Shown: positions 13,127 to 64,000 of the stretch, piece by piece
How the letters are laid out: each line of letters opens with the position of its first letter
Position numbering within the stretch: position 1 is the stretch's first letter
Assembly (NCBI RefSeq): GCF_018977255.1
Contig: NW_024704742.1
Span: forward strand, 122,142,001 to 122,206,000
Direction of reading: 5' to 3'
Length of the DNA stretch: 64,000 bases
From: Callorhinchus milii
Lineage: Eukaryota
Made by a program: the position numbers and the translations under genes
Notes under the pieces: model-generated
The model's input: the letters and a program-made list of their open reading frames with translations, nothing else
Databases searched by the model: none
What the model was told of the DNA's origin: nothing

Positions 13127-13445
13127 GGAGTCCTGTAGCTCAGTGGTTAGAGCACTCGCTTCGCAAGCGAGAGACCTGAGTTCAATTCCAGGCAGGGCGA
13201 AACCTTGGGCAAGTTTCCTTACTCCACACGCCTAATAATAATCCCTCCAAAAAACAAAAACAATAATTAAATTGGTCATTTTCAATCTATGACTGTTTGT
13301 GGGACATTGCTGTGCGCAATTGGCTGCCGCGTTCGCCCACAAATATACAGTCAACTCACTTTACAGTATATTCTGTGAAGCGCTTTGGGACGTCCTCCCG
13401 ACGTGAAAAGCGCTATATCAAATGCAAGGATTATTATTATTATTA
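13127..13445 (+). mobile_element. Young tRNA-Ala SINE, short (internally deleted) subfamily
   Basis: The head is joined directly as ccacacgcc|taataataatccctcc. Nearly identical to the copies at 31842, 36329 and 50359. Confidence 0.95.
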
Positions 13446-19755: not shown

Positions 19756-22700
19756 AGACACCATTTTCCATTTTCTGCGTACAATTACTTTTGCGTGACT
19801 GCACATCTTATTAATTCACTTTGCTTTCCTCTCAGTGCCAGACTAATTCCAGAACAATTCATTTGTTTACTAGTCTGCCTGCAGTCAAGCATGTATTTTA
19901 TTAGAAAAAATTAAATGATGAACAAAAACTATTTGGGGGGGAGGGAAGGGAGGAGAAGCCTTTGTTGTAACACACTGACTAAAACACACCATTAGTTTCC
20001 TTCAGTTTGCTTGGTGAACATGATTACGAAGAGATAATGTTTGGGATTATATTTTATTTTCTACTATCTTGGATTTGATTTGTATACTATAACAGTTCTG
20101 CTGTGGGACATTGGAATAGACAATAATAATATAAGCATATTTTCTGAAGAATGCTGAATGAGATAGTGAAATGAATAAAGCACGGTAGTCATATTGCTCC
20201 CTTATATCACGGAGAGCTAAACATGGTTATGAATTCTCTCCTAATCAGTGCAGTGCAATGACATTAATAATGGGAATAATGAAGATCATATTGTTAAAAG
20301 GTATACGCAGGTATGTACACAAATACCCTTTCTGGAATTAAATAGCAGTACATTGGGAGGAAATGTCAGAGGATGATTCATACTGAAAGCAATTTCTTGA
20401 ACACTTCACTCTTGGTCTCTACCACAATTCTTGCTGATGATTCAGCTTGGTACAAATAAATATTTCCTAATGTCGGTCCTAAAATTCACTGCCCAGAACC
20501 TATTGCCTTTTAATTGTTGGAAATATTATACATGGCTTGTTTTCTTTGTTCCATTGAGCATTTTTATACCTAACTCTGTAAGGTCTACTTTGAGACAGTC
20601 TTTTTGGAGGCTGCAGAACACTACTTTTTCAATCATCATCTTATTTTTGTTTTCCTGCCAACAATCCCACAGATAAATTGGTTATTCACTCAAAGGCTGT
20701 TGGTGAGCCTTGTTGTACACAAATTGGCTGTCACATTTGTCTTGAGGGGAATATGATACAATTGTGCAGTTATTATTAATAATAATCATAATCCTTTCCT
20801 TTGGTACAGCACCTTTCATATCACAAGGGTGACTCAAAGCGCTTCACAAGATATACTATAAAATATAATGAATGTTTATTTGTAAGTGAACAGGCCAGCT
20901 CAATGGTGTATAGCAGTGTCCCACAAACAACCATTAAATGAATATCTAACTTCATTTGGGAATTAAATATTCAATAGAAAGCCACTCTACTATGCTTCAT
21001 AATGTTATGTTGCTGAACTCCAGAAGTGATCAGTGTTCCTGATGTTCTGAATGTAAAATTCATTGCCTGTCTTGCCCTTTCACTATCAACCTGCAGAGGA
21101 CAGCATTTGATCTTTTCAAAAAAAATGTTTTTTGCGTTTCTTGTTTTGTCAGAATATGATTTTGATACTCTGTACCTTACAGATCATAAAACGGTGAAGC
21201 ATTTTAGCCTGGTCTGGGATTTTATTTGCCATTGTTTTTTTGATAGCTTTTCAAACAGCAAAAGAGACCAAATATTTTCTAAATCAAAAGAAGGGATATG
21301 TTGTCTCCCTGTCTCAATCTCTCCACTTTGCTTCCTCCTACCTCATCTTCAGATTGCATCTGAACATTTTCCTCTTCCATTTTCCCTTTCTCCCCAGCTC
21401 AGCATTAAGCTCCGCAAATGTTGTTATATTTATTTGCACTCAGCGTTATCCCAGTCAAAAATCCCAACCTTTGATCATTTCTACTGTTTATGAATACCTG
21501 TAAAAGTTTAAGTAAGTTATCTGATTGGGTCATGTTCAGATTATCTGCCATTTAGTTAACAGTGAGATTTATTAGTTCAAGAAATATTACTGTTAATGTT
21601 GATGCAGAACACTCTTCCCATTGAAATAGTAAACATTTGAGATGCTGTACAGTCAATTCACTTTACAGTACATTCTGTGAAGTGCTTTGAGACGTCTAGA
21701 AGACGTCTCAAAGTCAAATGCAAGGATTTTTATTATATTATTACGGTGAACAGTAAACCTCTTCGACACTGATAGATATCATCTGAGCAGGAAGATTTAT
21801 GTCTACAAAACAATCGCAATACTTGACAGCATAGATATAGGACAGAATAGCTGAAGAATTTATTCACAGCTTTTACTGTACAGTATGTGTTATTAATCTT
21901 TATTAACTGGACCATTTAACTGGGGTATGAGCATAATATTTACAGGTTACAAAACCAGGCTGTACTGAGTGCCTATTACACCAATCTGGATTCTGTGCAG
22001 TTACCAACTATCATGGGCGCTGTTGGTATGTATGGCTTCGAAAGCTAATATTTCAGGTTCATAAACATAAAATCCATTGTAAAAAGAAAAAATCCAATCC
22101 GATTTAAGATTTTGACAGCGTTCAAATTGGGAAGTGGTAAAAAAAATCAATAAAATAAAGTCATTTGAAATAGCACCTTTCACGTCAGGAAGATGTCTCA
22201 AAGCACTTCCCAATATATGCTGTAAACTGTAATGACTATGTATGTTATAGGCAATTGCGGCAGCTAATTTGCACACAGCAATGTGCCACAAAAAGTTATG
22301 AATTTTATTCTGGGGCCTTGTTGGTCAGTATTCTCCTAAATTAAATCATATTAAACCCATAAGATTCAATCATTATTCAATTACCCAATTGTGATTTCTT
22401 AAGTGATAGTTATGTTCAATTCTGTGGTCTGTTAAATAGTTAAGCCATATAATAGTTACTGTTAACCATTCCTGATGGCTTGATGTGAACATCAGCAAAG
22501 AAGAGGACCATGAGCTCCAATTGAAAGTGTTGTGAACTCGGACAACCATAAAACATTTACTGTTAAACATTCACATGTATTGACTTCTTGGTGAATAAGG
22601 ATGTTAAATCAACTGGTTGACCTTTTATTTCTGTGTCAAAAAACACTGCTGGATGAAATCTACATTGATTTTCTGCAATATGTGCACCAGTCACTGGATA

Positions 22701-23562: not shown

Positions 23563-23884
23563 AATAATATAATAATAATAATCCTTGCATTTGATATAGC
23601 GCTTTCCACGTCTTCTCGACGTCTCAAAGCGCTTCACAGAATAGACTGTAAAGTGAATTCACTGTATATTTGTAGGCGAAACGCGGCAGCCAATTGCGCA
23701 CAGCAGTGTCCCACAAACAGTCGTGGATTGAAAATGACCAATTTATTATTGTTTTTTTTTTTGGAGGGATTATTATTAGGTGTGTGGAGTAAAGAAACTT
23801 GCCCAAGGTTTTGCTCTGCCTGGAATTGAACCCAGGTGTCTCGCTTGCAAGGCGAGTGCTCTAATCACTGAGCTACAGGACTCC
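23563..23884 (-). mobile_element. Young tRNA-Ala SINE, short subfamily
   Basis: Reverse complement of a full element, ending at gagctacaggactcc. Confidence 0.92.
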
Positions 23885-25110: not shown

Positions 25111-25526
25111 AGCTCAGTAGTTAGAGCACTCGCCTCGCAAGCGAGAGACCTGGGTTTGATTCCCGGCAGGGCGAAACGTTAGGCAAGTTTCCTTACTCCA
25201 CATGTCTCTGTTTACCTAGCAGTAAGTAGGACCCCGGTTGTTAGTCGATTGGCGGATCGCTTTTCCTCGGGTAATAATTCCTTAAAAAAATAATAAATTG
25301 GTCACTCAATCCTAATAATATATACATTTTTTAAAATGATATATTCTATTAATAAAAAAGCAAGACACAAGTATGACTATTTGTGGGACACTGCTGTGCG
25401 GAATTGGCTGCCGGGTTTTGCCCACAAACATATAGTCAATTGACTTTACAGTATATTCTGTGAAGAGCTTTGAGACATCTCGAAAACGTGATAAGGCGCT
25501 ACATCAAATGGAAGGATTATTATTAT
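25111..25526 (+). mobile_element. Young tRNA-Ala SINE, long form, with a ~60-bp AT-rich internal insertion
   Basis: Canonical element interrupted after cactcaatcc (~25312) and resuming at atgactatttgtggg (~25373). Confidence 0.88.
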
Positions 25527-31841: not shown

Positions 31842-32161
31842 GGAGTCCTGTAGCTCAGTGGTTAGAGCACTCGCTTTGCAAGTAAGAGACTTGAGTTCAA
31901 TTCCAGGCAGGGCGAAACCTTGGGCAAGTTTCCTTACTCCACACGCCTAATAATAATCCCTCCAAAACCACAAAAAAAATAATAAATTGTTCATTTTCAA
32001 TCTACGACTGTTTGTGGGACATTGCTGCGCGCAATTGGCTGCCGCGTTCGCCCACAAATATACAGTCAATTCACTTTACAGTCTGTTCTGTGAAGCGCTT
32101 TGGGATGTCCTCCCGACCTGAAAAGCGTTATATCAAATGCAAGGATTATTATTATTATTAT
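31842..32161 (+). mobile_element. Young tRNA-Ala SINE, short subfamily
   Basis: Full element with A/B boxes and a (tta)n tail. Confidence 0.95.
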
Positions 32162-34463: not shown

Positions 34464-34797
34464 TTTCATGCAACAGTAACAAATCAGATTTATTTTTAAT
34501 GGATAAAAATTACACCTTATAATTTAAAAATCCCCAAATAATAAGAAGCAAAAGAAAATAAACTATCTTGAAGATGGAAGTTTCACTGTTGAAATTAGAT
34601 TGCTTTCTTTTAATAACAGGTACTTGAGAAAATTGGGTGTGTAAGGATTATTAAAAGAAAACAATCTAATTTCAACAGTGAAAATTCCATCTTCCAGACA
34701 GTTTATTTTCTTTTGTTTCTTATTATTTGGGGATTTTTGAATTATAAGGTGTAATTTTTATCCATTAAAAATAAATCTGATTTGATGTTGCATGAAA
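34464..34797. repeat. Long near-perfect foldback palindrome (~150-bp arms, 31-nt loop)
   Basis: 34464-34616 is the reverse complement of 34648-34797, with only scattered mismatches. Confidence 0.92.
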
Positions 34798-36281: not shown

Positions 36282-36328
36282 GGTTCCTAAATCACCTCTT
36301 TGTGTACTGTAAATGAATAATTTACAGT

Positions 36329-36648
36329 AGTCCTGTAGCTCAGTGGTTAGAGCACTCGCTTTGTAAGTGAGAGACCTGGGTTCAATTCCAGTCAGGGCGA
36401 AACCTTGGGCAAGTTTCCTTACTCCACACAGAGCCTAATAATAATCCCTCCAAAAAACAACAATAATAAATTGGTCATTTTCAATCTACGACTGTTTGTG
36501 GGACATTGCTGTGCGCAATTGGCTGCCGCGTTCGCCCACAAATATACAGTCAATTCACTTTACAATGTGTTCTGTGAAGCGCTTTGGGACGTCCTCCCGA
36601 CGTGAAAAGCGCTATATCAAATGCAAGGATTATTATTATTATTATTAT
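36329..36648 (+). mobile_element. Young tRNA-Ala SINE, short subfamily
   Basis: Full element. Confidence 0.93.
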
Positions 36649-36832
36649 AATAATAATAATCTTTGCATTTTATATATTGCCTTATCATGTCTTCAAGATG
36701 TCTCATATTGCTTCACAGAATATACTGTAAAAGTGAACTCACTGTATATTTTGTGGGCGAAACACGGCAGCCAATTGCGCACAGTAGGGTCCCACAAGCA
36801 GTTGTGGATTGAGTGACCAAATTATTATTATT
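36649..36832 (-). mobile_element. Young SINE 3' half, tail-to-tail with the preceding copy
   Basis: (taa)n, then ctttgcatttt...gcttcacagaatatactgta...ggattgagtgaccaa. Confidence 0.85.
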
Positions 36833-37104
36833 ATTCTCTGATTCCATAAATTGAATATTATTATTCTCTTGATTCCATATTTGCCCTAAGTAAACAGCAT
36901 TTAAGGGAACATGAAATGGGGGTTTATAACCTGATTGTACAGCATTTGACCAAGTCAGGACGAATCGGTGAGTCCTAACTTAACCCTGAACCAAGCTCAC
37001 CATCGATAGAAGCTTTTTACATTGGGGGCTCAGAAACATACTTCTGCACCTCCCCTGCCAACGCTTTCGTTCCTCCCCTCCTCACCAGCTCTGCCATCAA
37101 TGGT

Positions 37105-38159: not shown

Positions 38160-39050
38160 ATGTACACAAATCATTAAAGGTGATGGAAAGGGAAGTTAAC
38201 AAAGCTGTAAAACAAATAGCTAATGCAATCCTAGATTTTATAGAGTACAGGTATAACGTAGGTAAAGGTAAACTGGTTAGATTACCATTGGAGTACTATG
38301 TCCAGCTTTGGAAACCATACTAATAGGAAGGATAACAAGGCCATAAAGAGGGTGTGGAAGAAATTCACTAGGGTGTGCCAGGAATGAAAGGTTTTACCGG
38401 TGAGGCAAAAATGGAGGAACTCCAGTTTTTCCTTAGAAGAGAGATGGTTGAGGAGAGATCTGTTTTTTGGAAATTATAAGGAATTTGATAACACAAGGAG
38501 AATGGTCAGCAACTGAAGAACATGGAATTAACATCTGAGGGTAGGAGAGACTTTTTTTTACACAGAAAGGCTGTTCGGTTGTGAAATGTCTAGAATGACA
38601 GAGTGAGGTTGAATCAAAATTAGCTTTGAGAAGAATTAGATAAATATTCTAAAAAAAAGAGAAATATAAAAGAATATGGGGCTAAATTTGCAAGCGAGAG
38701 ACCTGGGTTCAATTCCAGGCAGGGCGAAACCTTGGGCAAGTTTCCTTACTCCACACGCTTAATAATAATCCCTCCACAAAAACAAAACAATAATAAATTG
38801 GCCATTTTCAATCCATGACTGTTTGTGGGACATTGCTGTACGCAATTGGCTGCCGCATTCGCCCACAAATATACAGTCAATTCACTTTACAGTGTATTCT
38901 GTGAAGCACTTTGGGACATCTAGAAGACGTGAAAAGCGCTATATCAAATGCAAGGATTATTATTATTATAAATTGAGTTGCTCTTTCAGAAAAACAGAAT
39001 AGGTATAATGGGCTGAATTGCCTCTGTCTATCTAGCACATCTCTATGGTT
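38160..39050 (+). mobile_element. Old CR1 3' region interrupted by a young SINE (~38688-38970)
   Basis: ctggttag...ttggagtactatgtccag (LV.P.LEY.VQ) and the CR1 3' end resumes after the SINE tail (atgggctgaattgcctc). Confidence 0.75.
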
Positions 39051-41334: not shown

Positions 41335-41648
41335 GGAGTCCTGTAGCTCAGTGGTTAGAGCACCCGCCTTGCAAGCCAGATACCTATGTTCAATTCCAGG
41401 CAGTGCGAAACCTTGGGCACGTTTCCTTACTCCACACACCTAATAATAATACCTCCAAAACAAAACAATAATAAATTGGTCATTTTCAATCCACGACTGT
41501 TTGTGGGACACTGCTGTGCGCAATTGGCTGCTGCGTTTTGCCCACAAATATACGGTCAATTCACTTTACAGCATATTCTGTGAAGTGCTTTGAAACGTCG
41601 AGAAGACGTGAAAAGCGCTATATCAAATGCAAGGATTATTATTATTAT
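41335..41648 (+). mobile_element. Young tRNA-Ala SINE, short subfamily
   Basis: Full element. Confidence 0.92.
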
Positions 41649-42883: not shown

Positions 42884-43241
42884 ATAATAATAATTCTTGA
42901 ATTTGACATAGCGCCTTACCACGTCATTGAGACATCTCAAAGCACTTCACAGAATATACTGTGAAGTGATTGACTGTAGATTTTGTGGTTGAAGTGCGGC
43001 AGCCAATTGCGCACAGCAGTGTCCTCACAAACAGTGGTCGATTGAGTGACTAAATTATAATTTTTTTAAGGGATTATTACCCCCAGAAAGCAATCTGCCA
43101 ATCGACCAACAACCGGGTTCTTACTTACTGCTAAACAGAGGCGTGTGGAGTAAGGAAACTTGCCTATGGTTGCACCTTGCCCTGGAATCGACCCGGGTCC
43201 TCTCACTTGCGAGGCCTCCAACCAATACACTGCAGGACTCC
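42884..43241 (-). mobile_element. Young tRNA-Ala SINE, long form
   Basis: Reverse-complement full element ending at caggactcc. Confidence 0.88.
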
Positions 43242-50358: not shown

Positions 50359-50681
50359 GGAGTCCTGTAGCTCAGTGGTTAGAGCACTCGCTTTGCAAGC
50401 AAGAGACCTGAGTTCAATTCCAGACAGGGCGAAACCTTGGGCAAGTTTCCTTACTCCACACGCCTAATAATAATCCCTCCAAAACCAAAAACAATAATAA
50501 ATTGGTCATTTTCAATCAACGACTGTTTGTGGGACATTGCTGTGCGCAATTGGCTGCCGCGTTCGCCCACAAATATACAGTCAATTCACTTTACAGTGTG
50601 TTCTGTGAAGCGCTTTGGGACGTCCTCCCGACGTGAAAAGCGCTATATCAAATGCAAGGATTATTATTATTATTATTATTA
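50359..50681 (+). mobile_element. Young tRNA-Ala SINE, short subfamily
   Basis: Full element, very close to the subfamily consensus. Confidence 0.95.
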
Positions 50682-58862: not shown

Positions 58863-60109
58863 TAATTGAAAAGCTATTAATTGAATAATTGAATAATAAT
58901 AATTGAATATTGAATTGCTGCGTTGATTAACGCAGAGTGATGTCAACAACCAATTGACATCCACGAATGTCCTCATCTCTGTAAAATTATGCTCTGCTCT
59001 GCCAAAGACATGGTGGAGAGGTTTTCATCCATAGCAGCTACAAGTGTGGTGAAACCTTCTAGGCCTCTAGATTATTTGCCTCCTTGTTGTCTTTCCTTTG
59101 TATAATTCCTACAATGTGCAGGATCTCTTGCAGTTTGGGGAACTTGGTTGTATAGTGTACCTGTTAGCAGTATGTAGTTGGTAGTCAGAAAATGATGAGG
59201 TTTCAGACTTTAAAAGGCAGCCTTCCTTGGATGTAGAAGCCATTTCTCGGGTTCCCTCATAGACATGATCCCTTGTTATCAAAGGTCACCATGTTAGACA
59301 CAACGAGGAGGACGTCCCAAGGCACTGGAAAAGGTTGATGGATGCCTACACAAGACAACTTAAAAGAAAGTTGCTTTAATTGTACATTTAACAGAACACA
59401 TCTCAGCAGAAACAAATGTGAGGAAATGTGGAAATGTAATCCTGGAGGTTTATCAGAGTTTATGTTTGGAAGCACAAATGGGTTGCAAAGTATACTGTTT
59501 ACACTTTTGCTGCTCTTAACATTGTGACAGTTTCGTAGCCTGGTGCCATCAGATGCACACATTTGCCCTTTGTATTTACAGTTAGATCTTTAATTCTCCC
59601 AAACAAGAGCACTAATGGCAATGCAGCTTAAAATATGAGACAGGTTGGACAGCTGTGTGGCACACTGCTTTGGAGTGTTGATTTGCATTATGCATTTGTT
59701 TGCAAACATGATGTTTGCAGTTATAATCCACAGCATGCTGAGCACTTATTTCAACCGTGAATTTACTAAGCAGAGGTGAAAAGGAGAAACACAAAAGGAT
59801 AAGTCAATTCAATGTGAATCGCGTTTTTACGTCTAATGGCCCATCAAGTTTATCCATTTGAGCTATACACCTTGACCAATTCTGCTCTCTCCACGTACTC
59901 TATTACATTTGCTCACTCTTATTGATATGCCCTGTGTACAGTGGAGTAACCGGATTAGAAGTAAATTCAATTAAGAGCTGTAGCTTAATAGATATAGAGG
60001 AACCCTGTTATAGCACCTTTCAATATAGATTGCGTCGCTCATAATAAATCCAGGTCTACTGAGGACCCACACTAACTGGAAGCGTAGTACATGTGGCCTC
60101 TGGAATTGG

Positions 60110-60235
60110 CTTCCCATGTTAAATAATGACCAACTTCCTGGTTGTCAGGTCATCCCTGACATCACTTCCTGCCCAGTGTCATCAGTGATGTTTCTTGAAA
60201 GGAAATGACATTAACGATGACCATTTTTTTCATGC
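60110..60235. repeat. Second copy of the acttcctg-rich repeat seen at ~2800
   Basis: Aligns in reverse orientation to ~2841-2900. Confidence 0.5.
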
Positions 60236-61530
60236 CTAATTGCCCTGGGATAATGGACCAGCTAACCACACTGCCACAAGGTTTCCCTGTATACCCTGAT
60301 AGTAACTTGTTTATTCAAACTCTATTATCTTGCAGCATACAATGAGGAACTTGTGAGATTCAGAAACTGGACTACAAATGGATCTGTAGTGCTGTGCATC
60401 TGTTTACTGCAGGAAAAACATTGCATTTCATCCTTTTTATTATCAAACCAAACAGATACGGACCCAGAATCATTTGGAACAACAACAAAAACTTGCATTT
60501 ATATAGCAACCCTTCAAGTAGGGCAGGGTGTTGGAGCAGTGTAGTTTGATGTGAGCCGGGGGGAGGGAGGAGGTGGCCTTAATCACGGTCAAAGAGGAAC
60601 ATCACTGTATCAAAATGACAGTTTGCAAACATGCAGTGAAAAATACCTGACCACCCACTTACAAATCTGCAGCCTGAACAATATCCTGGTCTTTGTAAAT
60701 GGCTCAGATGCTGTACACATACTCTGAAAAATACATAGTACTTCATTCTTACATAAATATCGTCCGGATTGTCTCAAACATGTTACCCATTGCTTTGTGT
60801 TAAAGCAGTTAAACTTGAGACATCCAATCATCAAGTTTGTCTTAAGCTATTTTCTAAAAAAAAGGTACTGTGGTAAAAGGTTTCACTTGACATAGGAATA
60901 AAGGAAAATAGAAACAAGAGGTGGCCATTCGTACTATTGAACCTGTTCCACACTCACTGGGAACAGGATTGAACTTTCTCTCAAACTAAAATGTTTGCTC
61001 AAAGTAGAACAAATCTGCAGAAACACTAGTGAGCGAGTAGTAAACTTAGGGAACAAGCTCCTTCGGGAGACAGTGGAAGCAGAAAATGTCATTTGTTTGA
61101 AGAACAAATTAGATAGATTTCTGCTGGAAAATAATATCTCAGAATACAGTGTATAATTTGGGACACAACATGTTAAGTGACTGCCAGGATGGTGGAAGGC
61201 GAACTAGATGGACCTTGGTCTTCTTTCGCCTAGCAAATTCTTATGTTCTTATGCACACAAAACACACAGTCACTGCACTTTACAGTATGTCCTATGAATG
61301 CTTTGAGGCATCCTCCTGAAGTGAAATGTGAAATGTAAAGATTATTATTATTAACTCAGCCATGTAAGAGCCTTACAGACAACTGTAAATTCAGTTTTCT
61401 TAAACTGTGTGAATGACATTAATTCACCATAAGATATAAACTCATAAGTGCTCCGAGACATTAACCATGTGAAGGCTGCAATATAAATGCAAGTTGTTGT
61501 TGTGATGCCATCAGGTACTCTGCTTATGTA

Positions 61531-61742
61531 TAATAATAATAAATAATCCTTGCATTTGATATAGCGCTTTTCACATCTTCGAGATGTACCAAAACGCTTC
61601 ACAGAATATACTGTAAAGTGAATTGACTGTATATTTGTGGGCGAACGCGGCAGCCAATTGCGCACAGCAATGTCCCACAGACAGTCCTGGATTGAAAATG
61701 ACCAATTTATTATTGTTTTTTTTTGAGAGATTATTATTATTA
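61531..61742 (-). mobile_element. Young SINE 3' half, fused to the MTFR1 fragment
   Basis: On the minus strand it starts at the internal taataataatctctc motif and ends in the L2-type tail. Confidence 0.9.
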
Positions 61743-61764
61743 GAACTAGAACTTATTATTATTA

Positions 61765-62338
61765 CTAGAACTGAACCTGCTTTATAACAAAGCAGGTTTT
61801 AAAGGAGATCTACTTAGTTACTCCTTTCTGCTACGGATGGAACTTTACACAAATATGTAATAACATAACAAATTGATTACAGGAATGTTTTCTGTTGTGG
61901 GTATATGGATACTATCCTCTGCCACAAGGAAAGTAAGCAAAAGTTAAATTCATATTTTTACCAGATTTTACACATATATGCTTATGTAAAACTCCGGAAA
62001 TTTCTGTAACAGCTTCAAGCAATGAAGTCTGAGGAGAACAAAACTGGAGAATAAGTACACTATTTTCTTTACAAAAGTCTTTCTTCTTACTTTGCTTCTA
62101 ATCAAGATTTTGCTAGCAATAACTTCCTTTTTCCTGCTGGCTTCAGCATGTGCTGTCCAAAGTTTGGAGGTTCTGCAGTTTCCATGAAGTCAGACTTTGA
62201 AAACTGGCTTTCATTTTCACAACTATCATTCTTGTAGCGATGTGCAAATTTTCGTTTCAAAGCTGCTGCTATTAGTGCAGTTGGATCTACTGAAGACTGA
62301 TCTGGTTTGACCTTTAGATCATCCACTGATTTCTTCAC
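61765..62338 (-). pseudogene. MTFR1: 5'-truncated intronless copy of the MTFR1 (mitochondrial fission regulator 1) C-terminus plus 3'UTR; open frame 62338-62102
   Basis: VKKSVDDLKVKPDQSSVDPTALIAAALKRKFAHRYKNDS...FGQHMLKPAGKRKLLLAKS* matches the MTFR1 C-terminus as I recall it (VKRSEQD...[22 protein letters not shown]...FGPHMLKPTGK). There is no ATG and no strong acceptor upstream. Confidence 0.75.
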
Positions 62339-62679
62339 AAATTAAATAAGTTACTGTCTGGGCAGCATGGTACAGTAGTGGACGGGTTCTCCAGTGAGCT
62401 TTGCTGTGAGTGATAGGAAGTGCGGGTGGGGGAAGTATTATGCTCCTGTTTATTGCATAGTGAGCTCCAGATGGCCACCATGTCAAAGAAGACAATATTG
62501 TACTTGGTTTCACCACAGCAAGAGATTTAAAGGTGCAGAGACAGTCACTTCAGGCCTCACATACATCCAAGTATTTCTCTCTATTAATCTCTCAACAACA
62601 ATAACAATTTGCCTTTCACCGAGGGAGAACATTTCAAAGTAGTTTACAAAGACTGAGTTTGTATTATTTAGCATTATTT

Positions 62680-62870
62680 AGCATGGGAAGCCATGGGAAG
62701 CCTGAGCTGGGAGCGAGATAGGAGGAACAGGATAGAGTTGGCCAAGGGAGTATGGGCGCAGGAGATTCCAGAGGTAGGATGAGATGAAGCCATGGAGGCG
62801 TTTGCAAGTAAGAATGAAGATCTTAAATGTAATCTGTGAGGGATAGGGATCCAGTGGAGGAGGTGAGGAG
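62680..62870 (-). mobile_element. L2 ORF2 fragment
   Basis: ISPHL.LHWIPIPHRL...FKI on the minus strand. Confidence 0.7.
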
Positions 62871-63410
62871 AGATAGATCTACCACTAACTATTTTATATT
62901 TATGTCCCCTTGTTTGGGACTCACCAATCAGTGGAACAAGCCTATCAACATTTACCTCATTGAAACTTTTCCTTATAATGTAATGCATAATATCCACTTG
63001 CCTTTATCCCCTTCCCCACCCCAACTACCCCACCCTCTACCCCCACTTCACACTCCCCTAGCATTCATTCTGAGCAGTTGGTATGCATCTTCAGTTTGAA
63101 GTCAAAGCTTTGATCTTATCCTGTAATCATCCAAATTGTAACAAGATTATTTTTCTGACCTCAATGAAGCTGTTTACTTTAGTAGATTTAAAGCCGGTGA
63201 TGCAAATGTACACTATGTAGCGATTAAATCTTAACCAGTACGTTTATTTAAATGTCCAAATGGTGGGATTTCTAAACGCTTTGTGCAATGATATGAATTT
63301 CACATCCAGCTTGAGCTCCCAGTCAGTGCTTTGAGATGTTTGTCCCCGTCACTACCCCAACACCCCCATGTGAAAGGCACTATATAAATGTAAATTGTAA
63401 TAGTATAATA

Positions 63411-63491
63411 CCATCAGTGAGTATCATACCATCAGTGAGTATCATGCTATCAGTGAGTAACATACTATCACAGAGTACCATGCTATCAGCA
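63411..63491. repeat. 18-bp minisatellite, about 4.5 units
   Basis: ccatcagtgagtatcata / ccatcagtgagtatcatg / ctatcagtgagtaacata / ctatcacagagtaccatg / ctatcagc. Confidence 0.85.
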
Positions 63492-63862
63492 AGTTGCTGT
63501 GCAGGTTAAACATGGTGAACAACCAATTTGCATCACTTCATGCAACATGCAGGTTTTGTCTTGCACAGGTCAAAGGTTGCAGTGGGTTTACAGCAATGTG
63601 TTTCCACTTGCCATCTGTATTAATGATGACAGATAAATGCGGAAAATGGGAAATAGGGTGGAATTTAAGATGGAATCCATATGGACTTGTAGGATAATAA
63701 ATGAGGAGTTTGTGTAAAACCAGTATTTCCTCCCATTGACTTTGATGAGTTATTGAATTTCGTACCGCTGTTTAATTAAGATACCTGTCACAGTATTGGT
63801 ACTCACACCCCAGTTTTTCTCGACAATGTTAAGCTTTTTNATTGTTTGATCTACCTCAAATT

Positions 63863-64000
63863 ACAACAACAAAATTACATTTGAATAGCGCCTTTCACAT
63901 CGGGGAGGACGTCCCAAGGTGCTGGACAGACAAACCTTTGGACCTGTGCTGGGAATCGGGGTCGGGGAGGGTGAAGGCCAGTGGGGGGAAGCAGGGAGAT
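63863..64000 (-). mobile_element. L2 3' end, running off the window
   Basis: (caa)n, then atagcgcctttcacatcggggaggacgtcccaaggtgctggacag. Confidence 0.8.

What the first reader, a model, noticed from the sequence alone, without database searches (positions are those of the whole stretch)
61531..61800. mRNA-SINE chimera: possible L2-driven retroposition of a cellular mRNA by template switching
Seen: on the minus strand the MTFR1 3'UTR does not end in poly(A). It runs through a short junctional duplication (gttcagttctagtaataataataa / gttctagttctaataataataat) straight into a same-orientation SINE 3' half carrying the L2-type tail. Established: L2 and CR1 are 'stringent' LINEs that need their own 3' tail, so they mobilise ordinary mRNAs poorly. 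Inference: reverse transcription began on a SINE RNA and switched to MTFR1 mRNA, or the parental 3'UTR already ended in this SINE. Either way the SINE tail would license retrocopy formation in a window with no visible L1.
Basis: partly seen in the sequence, partly recalled or inferred. Interest (0 to 1): 0.72.

Follow-up and report, generated by a model that had tools for sequence, protein, structure and literature searches.

The report
MTFR1 retrocopy fused to SINE tail
A dead, shortened copy of the end of the MTFR1 messenger RNA is joined, with no poly(A) tail, to the back half of a short jumping element in a chimaera (ghost shark) genome, most likely because a reverse transcriptase started on the element and jumped onto the message, which would be one way for genomes whose retroelements ignore ordinary mRNAs to still make gene copies.

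Summary
Observation confirmed. 62339-61756 (minus) is a 5'-truncated processed copy of MTFR1: 76/78 aa identical to Callorhinchus milii MTFR1, spanning the last exon junction by 9 nt and about 2% diverged from the expressed gene. It has no poly(A) and joins, through a 12-nt insert, the 3' half of a co-oriented tRNA-SINE whose tail hairpin is shared with LINE 3' ends. New here: the insert resolves into two MTFR1-templated pieces ending at the same base beside a 10-11-bp UTR hairpin, and a 7-bp repeat brackets the whole composite (P about 0.015). Best reading (0.6): one integration, SINE-to-mRNA template switch. Not excluded: later SINE insertion, SINE already in the parent UTR, or a fusion by deletion. 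The parent's sequence past the junction and the empty site were not seen, and no listed contig bridges the central junction. Closest known: U6-Mon-1 and U6-L2 chimeras of platypus and lizard; I found no mRNA-SINE version in 8 literature searches. The scan noted related RNA-retroelement chimeras elsewhere (7SK-CR1 in this genome, unchecked) but no look-alike of this sequence. A single dead copy; the value is the genome-wide test it suggests.

The parts
62343..62349 (-). 5' copy of a 7-bp TSD-like repeat (TTATTTA), followed by 3 extra nt (62342-62340) before the MTFR1 sequence
   Evidence: 292 of 20,000 random junctions (P 0.0146) match this tail by 7 bp or more
62331..62339 (-). last 9 nt of the penultimate MTFR1 exon, joined to the last exon without the intron; 5' truncation point of the retrocopy
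   Evidence: RNA? run X9 record 32 aligns to 62339; organism B DNA? record 16 stops at 62330 and runs on 380 nt; protein match starts at V257 (62338)
62102..62330 (-). coding part of the last MTFR1 exon with stop codon; frame intact but no start and no upstream exons
   Evidence: 76/78 aa identical to P0001 (residues 257-334); no other MTFR1 exon in the window
61756..62101 (-). MTFR1 3'UTR shared with the parent gene, ending in (TAA)3
   Evidence: X4 record 22 (61756-62191), X1 record 7 and X9 record 31 carry the parent's alleles
61774..61798 (-). 10-11-bp hairpin in the UTR, 2 nt upstream of the base where both junction pieces end; proposed RT stall site
   Evidence: z -3.64; strongest 30-nt fold of the 584-nt piece; 4 of 2683 unique background windows as strong
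61744..61755 (-). 12-nt junction insert: one extra TAA plus overlapping re-copies of MTFR1 61772-61764 and 61772-61766
61547..61743 (-). 3' half of a tRNA-headed SINE, starting at the family's internal (TAA)n tract; holds AATAAA at 61711 and the tail hairpin (61598-61563) shared with LINE 3' ends
61531..61546 (-). (TTA)n tail/target tract with the 3' copy of the 7-bp repeat (61546-61540)
   Evidence: 1 of 18 tails of this family in the window starts with this irregular form

Best explanation
One target-primed reverse transcription event by the L2/CR1-type LINE that mobilises this SINE. The enzyme bound the SINE RNA's 3' stem-loop, primed at a (TTA)n-like target and copied about 200 nt to the SINE's internal (UAA)n tract. 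It then switched to spliced MTFR1 mRNA near its 3' end via short microhomology, made two aborted 4-7-nt extensions that each stopped 2 nt short of a strong UTR hairpin (leaving the 12-nt duplicated junction), read through on the third try, crossed the last splice junction by 9 nt and was truncated. Integration left a 7-bp duplication and 3 extra nt. The product is a promoterless, start-less, dead pseudogene fragment. Shown: processed origin, no poly(A), anatomy of the junction, shared tail. Inferred: single event, direction and RNA-level nature of the switch, hairpin stalling.
For: Processed origin: exon junction spanned (a 9-nt match by chance is about 6e-6); no other MTFR1 exon in 64 kb. No poly(A) although only about 2.2% from the parent: 13 substitutions and 2 indels in 584 bp, of which 10 substitutions are listed table 3, 1 follows and 2 are inferred from piece counts. 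7-bp repeat around the whole unit, P 0.0146; 2 of 9 full-length copies tested show 5- and 7-bp repeats of the same tail-overlapping type; L2 chimeras in platypus have 1-9-bp TSDs in 72.5% of 40 and L2-clade TSDs peak at 3-5 bp. Junction pieces come only from MTFR1 and both end at 61772, beside the hairpin. The SINE tail keeps the stem-loop shared with LINE ends. The parent-allele contig stops at 61756, as expected if the parent leaves the window's path there (inference from how contigs end). U6 pieces fused to L2-dependent SINEs are documented in platypus and Anolis.
Against: The parent's sequence beyond 61756 and the empty site were never seen; no listed contig bridges the central junction. 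The 7-mer is AT-only, post hoc, 3 nt off the junction, and 7 of 9 control copies show no such repeat. Flank-templated extra nucleotides are a normal product of L2 5'-end joining on DNA, so the junction alone does not prove an RNA switch. The SINE half looks as old or older than the MTFR1 part: 4 of 161 sites private (the same four sites are minority alleles among SINE contigs) against 1-7 of 584 on the copy's lineage, Fisher p 0.025-0.42 for non-CpG sites. This SINE family is very dense and other copies also start near the same tract. An earlier, unchecked note on this genome judged a similar pseudogene/CR1 neighbourhood to be independent events.
Confidence: 0.6

Rival explanations
1. Two events, SINE second: an ordinary MTFR1 retrocopy was later hit at its 3' end by a 5'-truncated SINE, whose 5' end was joined with extra nucleotides templated from the flanking retrocopy DNA; the poly(A) was lost in a target-site deletion or lies hidden past the tail.
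For: L2 5' junctions commonly carry extra nucleotides copied from flanking DNA. The hairpin also folds as DNA (-10.0 kcal/mol). The 29 nt after the tail are too short for contigs to show whether the parent shares them.
Against: No poly(A) after the tail. The repeat brackets the composite rather than the SINE. The SINE half is not among the youngest copies (4 private sites against 0-1 in s13, s36, s50), yet must postdate a copy about 1% old. A sense (TAA)n tract would anneal this family's (TTA)n tail in the opposite orientation (inference).
Confidence: 0.13
2. The parent MTFR1 3' region already contained this SINE half and junction; a read-through transcript was primed at the SINE tail by the stringent LINE.
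For: Explains the slightly older look of the SINE half and fits the TSD-like repeat equally well. 3'UTR Alus are over-represented in human pseudogene parent genes (abstract).
Against: X4 record 22 carries parent alleles across several bubbles and indels but ends at 61756 instead of running about 45 nt further into the SINE, which suggests a real fork (inference, a microsatellite variant could also break it). The SINE half carries AATAAA at 61711, which should cleave an mRNA before the tail.
Confidence: 0.12
3. SINE first: the mRNA's (UAA)n primed on, or the retrocopy landed next to, an older resident SINE, and a target-site or later microhomology-mediated deletion removed the poly(A) and the SINE 5' half.
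For: (TAA)3 microhomology and templated insert are also end-joining signatures (general knowledge). SINE half possibly older. 46 (TAA)3/(TTA)3 tracts in the window.
Against: Needs the 7-bp repeat to be chance (P about 0.015), and needs a way to reverse-transcribe an mRNA without the stringent tail plus a deletion of over 100 bp. No tRNA head lies upstream of 62339.
Confidence: 0.12
4. Assembly mis-join at (TAA)n repeats between a retrocopy and a SINE.
For: No listed contig bridges 61756-61743 (198,827 pieces not shown).
Against: The 12-nt insert is structured and MTFR1-templated; flanks on both sides are present at single-copy depth in X1 and X4.
Confidence: 0.03

Closest known systems
U6-Mon-1 and U6-L2 chimeras of platypus; U6-AnolisSINE2 chimeras of Anolis (Doucet et al. 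2015, PMC4476161, section 10 read whole)
   Same: 5'-truncated cellular RNA upstream of a short co-oriented 3' piece of an L2 or L2-dependent SINE, no poly(A), short TSD, attributed to template switching under a stringent LINE.
   Different: The 5' partner is a spliced mRNA (exon junction kept), joined inside its 3'UTR rather than at a snRNA 3' end, with a stuttered junction; one copy here against 40 (platypus) and 6 (Anolis SINE).
L1-made processed pseudogenes and U6/L1, U6/pseudogene chimeras (PMC4476161 passages; PMC3747384 passages)
   Same: Spliced, 5'-truncated, dead copy of an mRNA.
   Different: No poly(A), no 13-15-bp TSD; the mRNA is the 5' (second) template, not the primed one.
LTR-mediated retroposition by template switching (review PMC5470649, passages)
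   Same: Partial mRNA copy captured by an RT switch at chance sequence similarity.
   Different: Non-LTR SINE on one side only; no LTRs.
SINEX-1_CM/SINE2-1_CM with partner LINE CR1-2_CM of Callorhinchus milii (table in PMC3747384)
   Same: tRNA-headed SINE of the elephant shark sharing a 3' tail with a LINE.
   Different: Identity of the window's SINE with this family was not tested (no repeat library); L2 versus CR1 clade of the partner rests on a recalled ORF2 C-terminal motif, and CR1-named families can be L2 clade.

Membership tests
Processed pseudogene (retrocopy) | Exon junction joined without the intron | tested here: met
   mRNA-type contig aligns to 62339, organism B gene contig stops at 62330; one junction, 9 nt only
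Processed pseudogene (retrocopy) | Separate from, and diverged from, an expressed parent gene | tested here: met
   2 aa differ from all 3 C. milii records; X9 contigs carry the records' allele at 62214; depth about doubled over the piece
L1-type processed pseudogene | 3' poly(A) tail and 13-15-bp TSD | tested here: not met
Template-switch chimera of a stringent LINE/SINE (U6-Mon-1 type) | Cellular RNA 5' of a co-oriented 3' piece of the element with an intact tail | tested here: met
Template-switch chimera of a stringent LINE/SINE (U6-Mon-1 type) | Short TSD around the whole chimera | tested here: inconclusive
   7-bp AT-only repeat, P 0.0146, 3 nt off the 5' junction; empty site unseen
Template-switch chimera of a stringent LINE/SINE (U6-Mon-1 type) | The two parts are not contiguous in the parent gene | tested here: inconclusive
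   parent-allele contig ends at 61756; the parent's continuation was not displayed
Template-switch chimera of a stringent LINE/SINE (U6-Mon-1 type) | Both parts absent together from the orthologous empty site | not testable with these tools
   no genome held; no orthologous flank piece of organism B among the listed pieces
tRNA-derived SINE with LINE-shared tail | tRNA-like head in full-length copies and 3' end shared with a LINE | tested here: met
   10 Rfam tRNA hits, all at heads of family copies found; about 45-nt shared end, same hairpin
SINE2-1_CM / CR1-2_CM pair | Sequence identity to the library consensus | not testable with these tools
   no repeat library available; name only
Functional retrogene | Start codon, promoter, own transcript | tested here: not met
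   only residues 257-334 of 334 present; the RNA? contigs of X9 carry parent alleles

The most novel reading that the evidence does not exclude
In genomes run by stringent L2/CR1 LINEs, such as chimaeras and sharks, mRNA retrocopies are made mainly by borrowing a SINE or LINE tail through template switching, with hairpin-plus-(UAA)n sites in 3'UTRs as landing pads. Most retrocopies there would then end in a co-oriented SINE/LINE 3' piece instead of poly(A), which would explain the 14,081 retrocopies reported in cartilaginous fishes despite stringent 3' recognition.
Probability: 0.15. Interest if true: 0.72.

Novelty: new variant of a known kind. Interest (0 to 1): 0.42.

Why it matters
Stringent 3'-end recognition is the standard explanation for the scarcity of retrocopies in birds and platypus. 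Yet a 2026 preprint counts 14,081 retrocopies in cartilaginous fishes and says CR1 or Tx1 sustain them; the passages I searched give no mechanism. This locus is a young, readable example of a route that squares the two, and it gives a simple genome-wide prediction (SINE/LINE tails instead of poly(A) at retrocopy ends). The locus itself is a dead fragment, and the mechanism is already accepted for snRNAs, so on its own it is a modest extension.

Tried and rejected
Real last exon of the MTFR1 gene: rejected (exon junction spanned, alleles differ from the expressed gene). Neighbour-gene check: all 425 of 425 mostly unique ORFs of 40 aa or more were scanned against Pfam; 4 weak hits, all under the curated cut-offs, no phosphodiesterase (PDE7A as neighbour is recalled from human). 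The scan is insensitive: it missed the MTFR1 piece itself and shorter exons. Own genome: none held, so parent locus, other retrocopies and L1/Tx1 content could not be searched. Sequencing runs: no RNA holder listed; 4 of 24 runs laid; the SINE swamped the joint and loose-end tables (1788 joints and 2874 loose ends not shown), so the parent's continuation and any empty allele were not displayed; X9 has no cover at 61752-61822, which is not used as evidence. A 33-nt UTR pattern in metagenome contigs: 0 matches. Supplements of the elephant shark cDNA paper (PMC3466250), which might give the MTFR1 cDNA length, could not be read. Dating SINE half against MTFR1 half: inconclusive. Earlier findings by sequence: none; by 8 words: none.

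Full report
Setting. The window is SINE- and LINE-rich vertebrate DNA (GC 35-44%; 29% self-repeated). The open frame at 62338-62105 (minus) matches residues 257-334 of Callorhinchus milii MTFR1 at 76 of 78 residues, and shark, ray and paddlefish MTFR1 at 52-74%. The organism is therefore C. milii or a very close relative. No whole genome was held.

The MTFR1 piece is a processed copy. No other MTFR1 exon lies in the 64 kb. Four of 24 listed runs were laid on 60900-63000. An 867-nt contig of run X9 (RNA by guess) aligns up to 62339 and continues 593 nt upstream. A 1111-nt contig of organism B (DNA by guess) aligns only to 62330 and runs on 380 nt, which I read as the intron. The window thus holds 9 nt of the previous exon joined to the last exon; by chance about 6e-6. 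The junction into unique flank is bridged by X1 record 8 and X4 record 24, so it is not an assembly error. Contigs of X1, X4 and X9 carry a second set of alleles, one of which (62214) gives the residue in all three C. milii protein records; these are the parent's. Copy and parent differ by 13 substitutions and 2 indels in 584 bp (2.2%): 10 substitutions are listed in table 3, one follows from the protein, two are inferred from piece counts. Organism B differs from the window by 11 of 169 (coding) and 21 of about 186 (UTR) letters, so the copy is younger than that split.

The 3' end. After about 345 nt of UTR there is no poly(A). The SINE half starts at 61743, at the family's internal (TAA)n tract, and ends in (TTA)n at 61531. 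Full-length copies have a tRNA head (10 Rfam hits). The last 45 nt or so are shared with the ends of LINE fragments in the window and fold into the same hairpin (z -1.9 to -2.5). That the partner LINE is L2-clade rests on a recalled ORF2 motif; a published table pairs the elephant shark SINE2-1_CM with CR1-2_CM, and such names can denote L2-clade elements. The family is dense: 42 other places in 64 kb, so a co-oriented start within 25 nt of a given point has about 0.8% chance (my arithmetic).

The junction. X4 record 22 carries parent alleles through several substitutions and indels and ends exactly at 61756, after (TAA)3. A contig ends where paths fork, so the parent probably leaves the window's sequence there; this is an inference, and a microsatellite variant could also break it. 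The 12 nt between 61756 and the SINE resolve into one extra TAA and two overlapping re-copies of MTFR1 (61772-61764 and 61772-61766), linked by 3-nt microhomologies. Both end at template base 61772, 2 nt from the foot of a hairpin at 61798-61774, the strongest 30-nt fold of the piece (-13.2 kcal/mol; 4 of 2683 unique background windows as strong). In the direction of first-strand synthesis this reads as SINE, jump to MTFR1, stall at the hairpin, realign, stall again, realign, read through. The decomposition is post hoc. Zebrafish L2 inserts also gain 5' extra nucleotides copied from flanking DNA, so it does not by itself separate an RNA switch from a later SINE insertion.

One event or two. 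TTATTTA lies 3 nt before the MTFR1 5' end (62349-62343) and again at the start of the tail (61546-61540). 292 of 20,000 random junctions match this tail as well (P 0.0146), and only 1 of 18 tails of the family in the window has this form. Of 9 full-length control copies, 2 show 5- and 7-bp repeats of the same kind and 7 show 3 bp or less, so the family makes short TSDs some of the time. This fits L2-type integration and favours co-integration, moderately. Against: the SINE half has 4 private sites of 161, also minority alleles among SINE contigs, while the copy's own lineage has 1 to about 7 changes in 584; Fisher p 0.025-0.42 on non-CpG sites. This hints the SINE half is as old or older, which argues against a later SINE insertion but fits a resident SINE; a non-consensus source RNA explains it too, and the changes in the tail stem keep or add pairs. 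The SINE half has AATAAA at 61711, which would be expected to end an mRNA before the tail if the SINE were in the parent UTR. No listed contig bridges the central junction, and the tail/flank junction is covered with only 26 letters on the SINE side.

Weighing. Single event with template switch 0.60; later SINE insertion 0.13; SINE already in the parent 0.12; resident SINE plus deletion 0.12; mis-assembly 0.03. These are judgements, not computed values.

Literature. PMC4476161 (passages; section 10 whole) describes U6-L2 and U6-Mon-1 chimeras in platypus and U6-AnolisSINE2 in Anolis, and states that cellular RNAs must acquire the L2 segment to be mobilised. So the mechanism is known for snRNA. 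Passages only: PMC3747384, PMC5470649, PMC3136929 (retrocopy number tracks L1, not L2/CR1, in 10 genomes), PMC4245944, PMC5381603 (L2, CR1 and SINEs prevail in C. milii), PMC3964593, PMC4760211, PMC2666801, PMC3466250 (supplements unreadable, and they might bear on the parent's cDNA length), bioRxiv 10.64898/2026.06.26.734816 (supplements not seen). Abstract only: PMC5199112. Eight searches returned no paper whose listing or read passages describe a spliced mRNA fused to an L2/CR1-dependent SINE tail; the library lacks most subscription journals, so this is not proof of absence. Suh 2015 and Ichiyanagi and Okada 2008 were seen only as citations.

Earlier notes of the scan (unchecked): a 7SK-CR1 chimera and a UFD1 pseudogene next to an independent CR1 in this genome, and U6 and SRRM1-L1 cases in other genomes. 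They show both outcomes occur; I did not use them as support.

Verdict. A real, young, dead MTFR1 retrocopy fragment fused to a SINE tail, most likely a template-switch chimera: a new variant (mRNA partner) of a known kind. Interest 0.42; higher only if the genome-wide test shows it is the rule.

Noticed in passing
window 61867-62323: Where organism B's contigs cover a copy/parent difference, B mostly lacks the parent's allele (62128, 62214, 62267, 62273, 61994, 61996; also 61867/61869 on an unidentified contig) and shares it only at 62003; sharks and paddlefish side with the window at the two amino-acid sites. The expressed gene seems to have changed more than its dead copy (5-9 versus 1; binomial p 0.02-0.22). 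104 rows were hidden, so third alleles in B are not excluded. Unexplained.
   Followed up: partly
window 61853-62161: Run X1 hints at a third, parent-like copy of the MTFR1 3' end: depth 24.6 against 10-12 in flanks, three contigs meeting at 61861-61891, and parent alleles kept at every listed bubble.
   Followed up: no
window 13127-13445, 23569-23884, 31842-32161, 36327-36650, 38687-38969, 41335-41648, 50359-50676: A young SINE subfamily lacks about 55-60 nt of the body that older copies (11134, 25111, 49591) have; the deletion ends at the same (TAA)n tract where the focal half begins.
   Followed up: partly
window 36327-36841: Two SINE copies tail to tail in opposite orientation sharing one (TTA)n/(TAA)n tract, as expected if tails target tail-like tracts.
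   Followed up: no
window 21685-21713 and 42943-42968: Perfect palindromes inside SINE tails (13-bp and 10-bp stems), possibly fold-back copying during insertion.
   Followed up: no
window 34480-34784: 137-bp inverted repeat, 96% complementary, 31-nt spacer, right after a LINE 3' fragment.
   Followed up: no
window 59001-64000: Runs X4, X6, X8 of one study (RNA by guess) hold 0.80, 0.43 and 0.08 of the words with only 94-270 million letters, which would fit tissue-specific intronic RNA from a long host gene; no host exon was identified.
   Followed up: no
window 25307-25374: An AT-rich insert of about 60 nt splits a SINE copy just past its internal AT tract.
   Followed up: no
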